Below are positions 46,207-46,546 of a DNA stretch of 64,000 bases, piece by piece. Numbering within the stretch: the stretch's first letter is position 1; the number at the start of each line of letters is the position of its first letter. The stretch comes from Chiloscyllium plagiosum (lineage: Eukaryota), in the NCBI RefSeq assembly GCF_004010195.1, contig NC_057716.1, positions 45,102,525-45,166,524 of the forward strand. Direction: 5' to 3'. The position numbers and the translations under genes were made by a program. Below the pieces are notes generated by a model. The model searched no databases and was not told the origin of the DNA. It saw only the letters and a program-made list of their open reading frames with translations.

Positions 46207-46457
46207 TCAAGGTATATTTTCTTTGACTTTAGAAACCACTTTCTTCTCCTTGACTCTTCTGTTCTGAAACCAGATGGTGACTTGTCTTTCGGTAAGATTG
46301 GTGGCAGTGGATATCCTTCGTCTTTTTTCCTTAGTTATGAATTTGTTTGTGGCGTATTCTCGCTCCAGTTCTTTGAGCTGAGTTTTCGTATAAGGAACCC
46401 TTTTCTTCCTCCCTCGTCTGTAAATGTTTATGTCAGTCTGATTGTGCATCACGTCTC
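46207..46457 (-). CDS. hoxd13: HoxD13 exon 2 (homeobox)
   Basis: After [90 protein letters not shown]. Confidence 0.96.
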
Positions 46458-46475
46458 CTGGGGAAGGGGTGGGGG

Positions 46476-46546
46476 GGTGACTTGTCTTTCGGTAAGATTG
46501 GTGGCAGTGGATATCCTTCGTCTTTTTTCCTTAGTTATGAATTTGT
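46476..46546 (-). repeat. Exact 71-bp intronic duplicate of HoxD13 homeobox sequence 46276-46346
   Basis: GGTGACTTGTCTTTCGGTAAGATTGGTGGCAGTGGATATCCTTCGTCTTTTTTCCTTAGTTATGAATTTGT is present at both positions without mismatch. Confidence 0.95.

What the first reader, a model, noticed from the sequence alone, without database searches (positions are those of the whole stretch)
46276..46546. Exact 71-bp copy of the HoxD13 homeobox inside its own intron, offset by exactly 200 bp
Seen: 46476-46546 is identical to 46276-46346, covering codons for [23 protein letters not shown] (helix 2 to the start of helix 3), in the same orientation. It occupies positions -19 to -89 from the 3' splice site, abutting a C-rich pyrimidine tract where the branch point would be expected. 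Inference: if real, it is a very recent templated insertion that may alter branch-point or acceptor choice, since it adds several AG dinucleotides. It would also allow recombinational deletion of the acceptor and helix 1. Zero divergence, the round offset and the adjacent G run make an assembly or gap-filling artefact at least as likely.
Basis: partly seen in the sequence, partly recalled or inferred. Interest (0 to 1): 0.75.

Follow-up and report, generated by a model that had tools for sequence, protein, structure and literature searches.

The report
False exon copy in HoxD13 intron
A 71-base piece of a shark's HoxD13 homeobox is repeated inside the gene's own intron in this sequence, but public data from two studies of the best-matching species show different letters at that spot, so the copy is most likely an assembly error and not biology.

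Summary
The repeat is real in the window: 46476-46546 equals 46276-46346, 71 of 71 bases, offset 200. It is not an insertion. Of 4 runs laid, 2 were informative, from two studies of the best-matching organism. In X5 one contig bridges the whole intron with 81 other letters in place of 46477-46546 (intron 292 bp, not 281). In X9 the contig leaves the window's sequence exactly at 46547. None of 10 laid records supports either junction. So the copy replaces about 82 bp of normal intron, beside the strongest G-quadruplex motif of the window, and equals the first 71 of the 200 bases before it. Most likely a wrongly patched assembly gap (artefact of any kind about 0.88). A private repair scar of the sequenced animal is not excluded (about 0.10), because the source reads were not available. 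HoxD13 itself is intact (312 aa).

The parts
46739..47426 (-). HoxD13 exon 1 coding part (229 codons plus 1 base, phase-1 donor)
   Evidence: Open frame; Pfam HoxA13_N E 6e-36; best hit is a shark HoxD13 at 99% identity
46458..46738 (-). HoxD13 intron, GT..AG; 281 bp in the window, 292 bp in run X5
   Evidence: joint skipping 281 bases with CT..AC ends, and a 347-nt unspliced record against a 55-nt spliced record (tables 5 and 8; arithmetic)
46476..46546 (.). The 71-bp copy, standing where X5 has 1 shared G plus 81 other letters; probable false patch
46460..46477 (+). G-quadruplex motif (the C-rich acceptor tract on the gene strand); highest G4Hunter-like score in the window, 3.05
   Evidence: X5 matches the window through 46476
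46276..46346 (-). Source of the copy: homeodomain residues about 24-46 in exon 2; also the first 71 of the 200 bases that end at 46475
46207..46457 (-). HoxD13 exon 2 coding part with the homeobox and stop codon
   Evidence: Pfam Homeodomain E 6.2e-20; spliced product 312 aa, 4 differences from P0003

Best explanation
The 71-base copy stands in place of about 82 bases of ordinary HoxD13 intron that independent data show, and it is most likely a wrong patch written during genome assembly. Shown: the copy, the different letters in X5 and X9, the G-rich motif at its edge, and that it equals the first 71 of the preceding 200 bases. Inferred: a contig broke at the G-quadruplex motif, and a gap-closing or graph-flattening step that handled a fixed 200-base flank wrote the start of that flank into the gap instead of the missing letters. 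The real gene would then have a normal 292-bp intron, with no altered splicing and no substrate for recombination.
For:: X5 record 2 (347 nt, depth 28.8) matches 46432-46476, has 81 other letters, then matches 46547-46767, with 45 and 221 bases on the two sides. X9 record 8 (another study) matches 46547-46968 and goes on with 48 letters unlike the window; the 30 printed letters occur nowhere in the window. 0 of 10 laid records carry either junction. X9 record 7 runs unbroken across the source copy (46132-46412, depth 3), which a de Bruijn contig should not do if a second copy were well covered (inference; how these contigs are built is recalled). Zero divergence, offset exactly 200, junction homology only 1 and 0 bases. 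The site has the top G4 score of the window; G4 motifs are depleted and error-prone in short-read assemblies (PMC7757076, passages). False duplications near contig boundaries are a common error (PMC8081667, passages); gap closers often write inaccurate sequence (10.1101/2021.02.26.432990, start of abstract).
Against: The reads behind this assembly were not available (no genome held; no listed run is known to be the source), so absence in other animals does not exclude a private allele. Only 2 of 4 laid runs were informative, all were contigs, and contigs drop rare variants. X9 is shallow (depth 3-8) and holds only 0.68 of the words. An 81-82-bp loss with a nearby templated insert and 1-base homology also fits polymerase-theta scars (PMC4032859). 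I found no paper or tool description of this exact 200-base slip; one assembler works at an effective k of about 200 (PMC5411770), but which software made this sequence is unknown. No second patch at offset 200 exists in the window.
Confidence: 0.7

Rival explanations
1. Still an artefact, but made at the bench: a polymerase stalled at the G-quadruplex during library amplification or sequencing, switched template to the nearby exon, and one chimeric molecule became the consensus where coverage was thin.
For: Same absence in X5 and X9; position at the strongest G4 motif; G4 structures can cause strand-specific sequencing errors (PMC7757076, passage).
Against: Does not explain an offset of exactly 200; template switches usually need homology at the joints (general knowledge), and here there are 1 and 0 bases.
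Confidence: 0.18
2. A real allele private to the sequenced animal or its family: a break near the G-quadruplex was repaired by polymerase-theta-type end joining, which deleted about 82 bp of intron and copied 71 bp from exon 2, 130 bp away. It would remove the native branch-point region and add five AGs before the acceptor.
For: Deletion size of 50-200 bp, single-base homology and flank-templated inserts are the described signature (PMC4032859); G4 motifs cause such deletions (PMC4654259). The copy holds a branch-like CTTAC at -39, and the pyrimidine tract and acceptor are kept.
Against: Absent from both informative runs. Polarity is opposite to the described G4 scars: there the 3' junction lies beside the motif and the other junction 50-300 bp away on its 5' side, so the motif falls inside the deletion (the last step is my reading); here the motif is kept and the loss lies 3' of it on the G-rich strand. 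About 51 letters of the normal sequence were not shown, so a second motif there cannot be excluded. The inserts described are 'short sequence stretches'. A round offset of 200 would be a coincidence of roughly 1 in 100 (my estimate).
Confidence: 0.1
3. The copy is fixed or common in the window's own lineage, and the runs that lack it come from a sister population or species.
For: Organism names are coded; X9 holds only 0.68 of the words.
Against: X5 holds 0.94 of the words, and its 3 records show 0 other letters and 0 gaps over the parts that align, including the rest of the intron. A fixed copy would not be expected to stay free of divergence and lie at a round offset.
Confidence: 0.02

Closest known systems
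Homotype false duplications and inaccurate gap fills in genome assemblies (Rhie et al. 2021, PMC8081667, passages read; DENTIST preprint 10.1101/2021.02.26.432990, start of abstract seen)
   Same: Identical local copy, unsupported by independent data, at a hard-to-sequence site, and open to misreading as an exon duplication.
   Different: Those described are about a read long and add sequence at contig ends; this one is 71 bp and replaces about 82 bp. A contig boundary here is inferred, not seen.
Polymerase-theta (TMEJ) deletions with templated insertion, including G4-induced ones, in C. elegans (PMC4032859, passages and section 6; PMC4654259, passages)
   Same: Loss in the 50-200-bp class, insert identical to nearby DNA, 1-base homology at one joint, G4 motif adjacent.
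   Different: G4 motif retained and loss on its 3' side; insert long and from 130 bp away; not seen in either informative run.
Vertebrate HoxD13 (host gene; PF12284 + PF00046)
   Same: Two exons, one phase-1 intron, 312 aa, 308 of 312 residues identical to the shark record P0003.
   Different: No difference in the protein beyond 4 substitutions; only the intron patch differs.

Membership tests
HoxD13 gene | Hox13 N-terminal domain followed by a homeodomain | tested here: met
   PF12284 on exon 1 and PF00046 on exon 2
HoxD13 gene | Closer to HoxD13 than to HoxA13, B13 or C13 | tested here: met
   The best hit (99%) and the top-ranked named hits (49-59%) are HoxD13; A13, B13 and C13 records score lower
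HoxD13 gene | Last Hox gene of a cluster, next to an Evx gene on the opposite strand | tested here: met
   Six homeoboxes on the - strand ending at 46413, and one on the + strand near 63.4 kb; the Evx label is recalled from its helix-3 sequence, not from a call
False duplication or false gap fill in an assembly | Not supported by independent sequence data of the organism | tested here: met
   2 of 2 informative runs (of 4 laid) show other letters; 0 of 10 records carry a junction
False duplication or false gap fill in an assembly | Not supported by the reads of the assembled individual | not testable with these tools
   No genome held; no listed run is known to be the source; all listed runs are contigs
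False duplication or false gap fill in an assembly | Lies at a former contig end or gap | not testable with these tools
   The window has no N; the G4 motif at the edge is only suggestive
TMEJ deletion with templated insertion | Deletion of 50-200 bp with an insert copied from the flank | tested here: met
   81-82 bp replaced; template 130 bp from the left edge
TMEJ deletion with templated insertion | At least one priming base of homology at the joints | tested here: inconclusive
   1 base (G, 46476) at one joint, which a G run gives by chance; 0 at the other, if the printed loose end is the part next to 46547
TMEJ deletion with templated insertion | For G4-caused events, 3' junction beside the motif and loss extending 5' across it | tested here: not met
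   Motif kept at 46460-46476 and loss on its 3' side, against PMC4654259; about 51 normal letters unseen
TMEJ deletion with templated insertion | Present in the DNA of a living animal | tested here: inconclusive
   Absent in X5 and X9; source animal not available

The most novel reading that the evidence does not exclude
The sequenced shark really carried a fresh repair scar in HoxD13: about 82 bp of intron, including the native branch-point region, swapped for a 71-bp copy of its own homeobox beside a G-quadruplex. It would be a natural allele that adds five new AG sites (one in frame, giving 336 aa; four truncating, giving 239-258 aa) and sets up a 200-bp deletion of the acceptor and helix 1.
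Probability: 0.1. Interest if true: 0.35.

Novelty: not a real feature. Interest (0 to 1): 0.07.

Why it matters
As an artefact it matters only for curation: the assembly is probably wrong over 71 bp of the HoxD13 intron, which would mislead branch-point, conservation and primer work there. The pattern (a patch equal to the start of the preceding 200 bases, next to a G run) is a cheap filter to try genome-wide. If it were real, it would be one private allele of a known repair type in a highly constrained Hox cluster: a curiosity, not a new mechanism.

Tried and rejected
Whole-genome search for other offset-200 patches: impossible, no genome held. X1 (share 0.96) laid 0 records, which the tool says can be a filter effect; X14 (organism B) laid only a 33-base off-target piece; so there is no outgroup intron and no deep DNA run. 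No RNA holder was listed on record; X5 is read as RNA only because of its spliced joint. X9 has no aligned cover at 46413-46546 and X5 none below 46432; these holes are not used as evidence. The best word share of 0.96 is compatible with missing junction words (about 6 of 305) but cannot discriminate. The idea that the displaced normal sequence sits elsewhere in the window: 0 matches with up to 3 mismatches. Paper searches for a described HoxD13 intron duplication in sharks (21 papers, 15 listed, none on this by title or abstract start) and for a gap-closer slip of this form (0 papers; none describing it in the listings) found nothing specific. Earlier-finding look-ups were empty. Tandem duplication and retrocopy were rejected: no head-to-tail unit, no poly(A), no target-site duplication, and sequence is lost at the site.

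Full report
Observation. The repeat is as described. Positions 46476-46546 equal 46276-46346 over 71 bases, in the same orientation, 200 apart, and the match cannot be extended on either side. The other two exact repeats of 20 or more bases in the window are matches between paralogous homeoboxes. Across offsets 1-3000 the next longest exact match is 14 bases, and chance expectation is about 1e-31.

Host gene. HoxD13 lies on the - strand: exon 1 coding 47426-46739, a phase-1 GT..AG intron 46738-46458 (281 bp), exon 2 coding 46457-46207. Exon 1 carries PF12284 and exon 2 PF00046. The best of 242 hits is a shark HoxD13 at 99% identity, and the spliced product is 312 aa with 4 differences from that record. 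Five more homeoboxes lie on the same strand at lower window coordinates, and one lies on the opposite strand near 63.4 kb (the Evx label is recalled). Earlier unchecked notes call this genome a bamboo shark; I did not test that.

Independent data. The run search listed 24 runs, the best holding 0.96 of 305 words. I laid 4 of them, from four studies. X1 laid nothing and X14 only a short off-target piece. X5 (organism A, share 0.94) gave three records. One, of 347 nt, matches 46432-46476, carries 81 other letters, then matches 46547-46767 without a difference; it has 45 and 221 bases on the two sides and so passes the tool's bar for bridging. A second, of 55 nt at depth 167, skips exactly 281 window bases with CT..AC ends. 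It has only 25 and 30 bases per side, below that bar, but agrees with the protein alignment; it suggests X5 is RNA although listed as 'DNA?'. The two lengths differ by 292, so the intron in that animal is 11 bp longer than in the window. X9 (organism A, another study, share 0.68, depth 3-8) has a record that matches 46547-46968 and continues for 48 letters unlike the window; the 30 printed letters are found nowhere in the window. Another X9 record passes unbroken through the source copy (46132-46412). None of the 10 laid records carries either junction. So the copy is a replacement of about 82 bp, with its right edge at the same base in both studies.

Why an artefact. The patch has zero divergence and an offset of exactly 200. 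It is the first 71 bases of the 200 that end at 46475, the pattern expected if a program took a fixed flank from a contig end and wrote its start into a gap (inference). Its left edge is inside the G-rich motif with the highest G4Hunter-like score in the window, 3.05; of 3 canonical G4 motifs only this one has such a copy. G4 motifs are error-prone and under-represented in short-read assemblies (PMC7757076, passages). False duplications near contig boundaries are a common error that can be misread as exon duplications (PMC8081667, passages), and gap closers often write inaccurate sequence (10.1101/2021.02.26.432990, start of abstract in a listing). One assembler works at an effective k of about 200 (PMC5411770, passages), which shows that the number occurs as a software constant; I do not know which software made this sequence, and I found no description of this exact slip.

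What speaks against it. I could not see the source animal's reads, the laid runs are contigs that drop rare variants, and only two were informative. A loss of 50-200 bp with single-base homology and an insert copied from the flank is the described signature of polymerase-theta end joining (PMC4032859, passages and section 6), and G4 motifs trigger it (PMC4654259, passages). The site fits the size class and has 1 base of homology at one joint. But the G4 polarity is reversed, the insert is long and taken from 130 bp away, the other joint shows no homology, and the round offset would be coincidence. About 51 letters of the normal intron were not printed, so a further G-rich motif there is possible. 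There is no second offset-200 patch in this window to show a systematic fault.

If it were real. The acceptor and pyrimidine tract remain, and the copy supplies a branch-like CTTAC at -39. Use of its AGs would give one in-frame 336-aa product or four truncated ones of 239-258 aa, but by inspection none has a pyrimidine tract. X5 comes from an animal with the normal intron and says nothing about these effects.

Verdict. Artefact of some kind about 0.88 (software patch 0.70, chimeric molecule 0.18), private repair scar 0.10, lineage-wide allele 0.02. I found no paper on such a copy in shark HoxD13 (15 of 21 papers listed, titles and abstract starts only). The scan had no note near this place; unchecked notes describe other short exon-copy patches in this and another cartilaginous fish genome, which gave me the repair-scar lead but are not support. 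No supplements were read; the junction tables of the TMEJ papers could sharpen the comparison of insert length and template distance.

Noticed in passing
window:46696: X9 has one more A in an intronic A run than the window; X5 agrees with the window. A length polymorphism or a contig error.
   Followed up: no
window:52974-53005 and 54220-54251: Inverted repeat of 32 nt, 84% complementary, 1214 nt apart, between HoxD13 and the Evx-like gene; possibly the ends of a small transposon or two inverted repeat fragments.
   Followed up: no
window:8702-8732 and 47157-47178: Two more canonical G-quadruplex motifs on the + strand, with no nearby exact copy.
   Followed up: partly
protein P0005 and the window homeobox at 14801: A frog record named HoxD13 has a HoxD13 exon 1 joined to a homeodomain identical to the window's homeobox at 14801, not a group-13 one; probably a mis-joined gene model.
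   Followed up: no
window:47340-47426: The exon 1 frame starts 29 codons before the MEG start of the lungfish record P0004; the extension is shared with the shark record P0003.
   Followed up: no
window:63581-63818: GC-rich short repeats just after the + strand homeobox, resembling alanine-run codons of the Evx-like gene.
   Followed up: no
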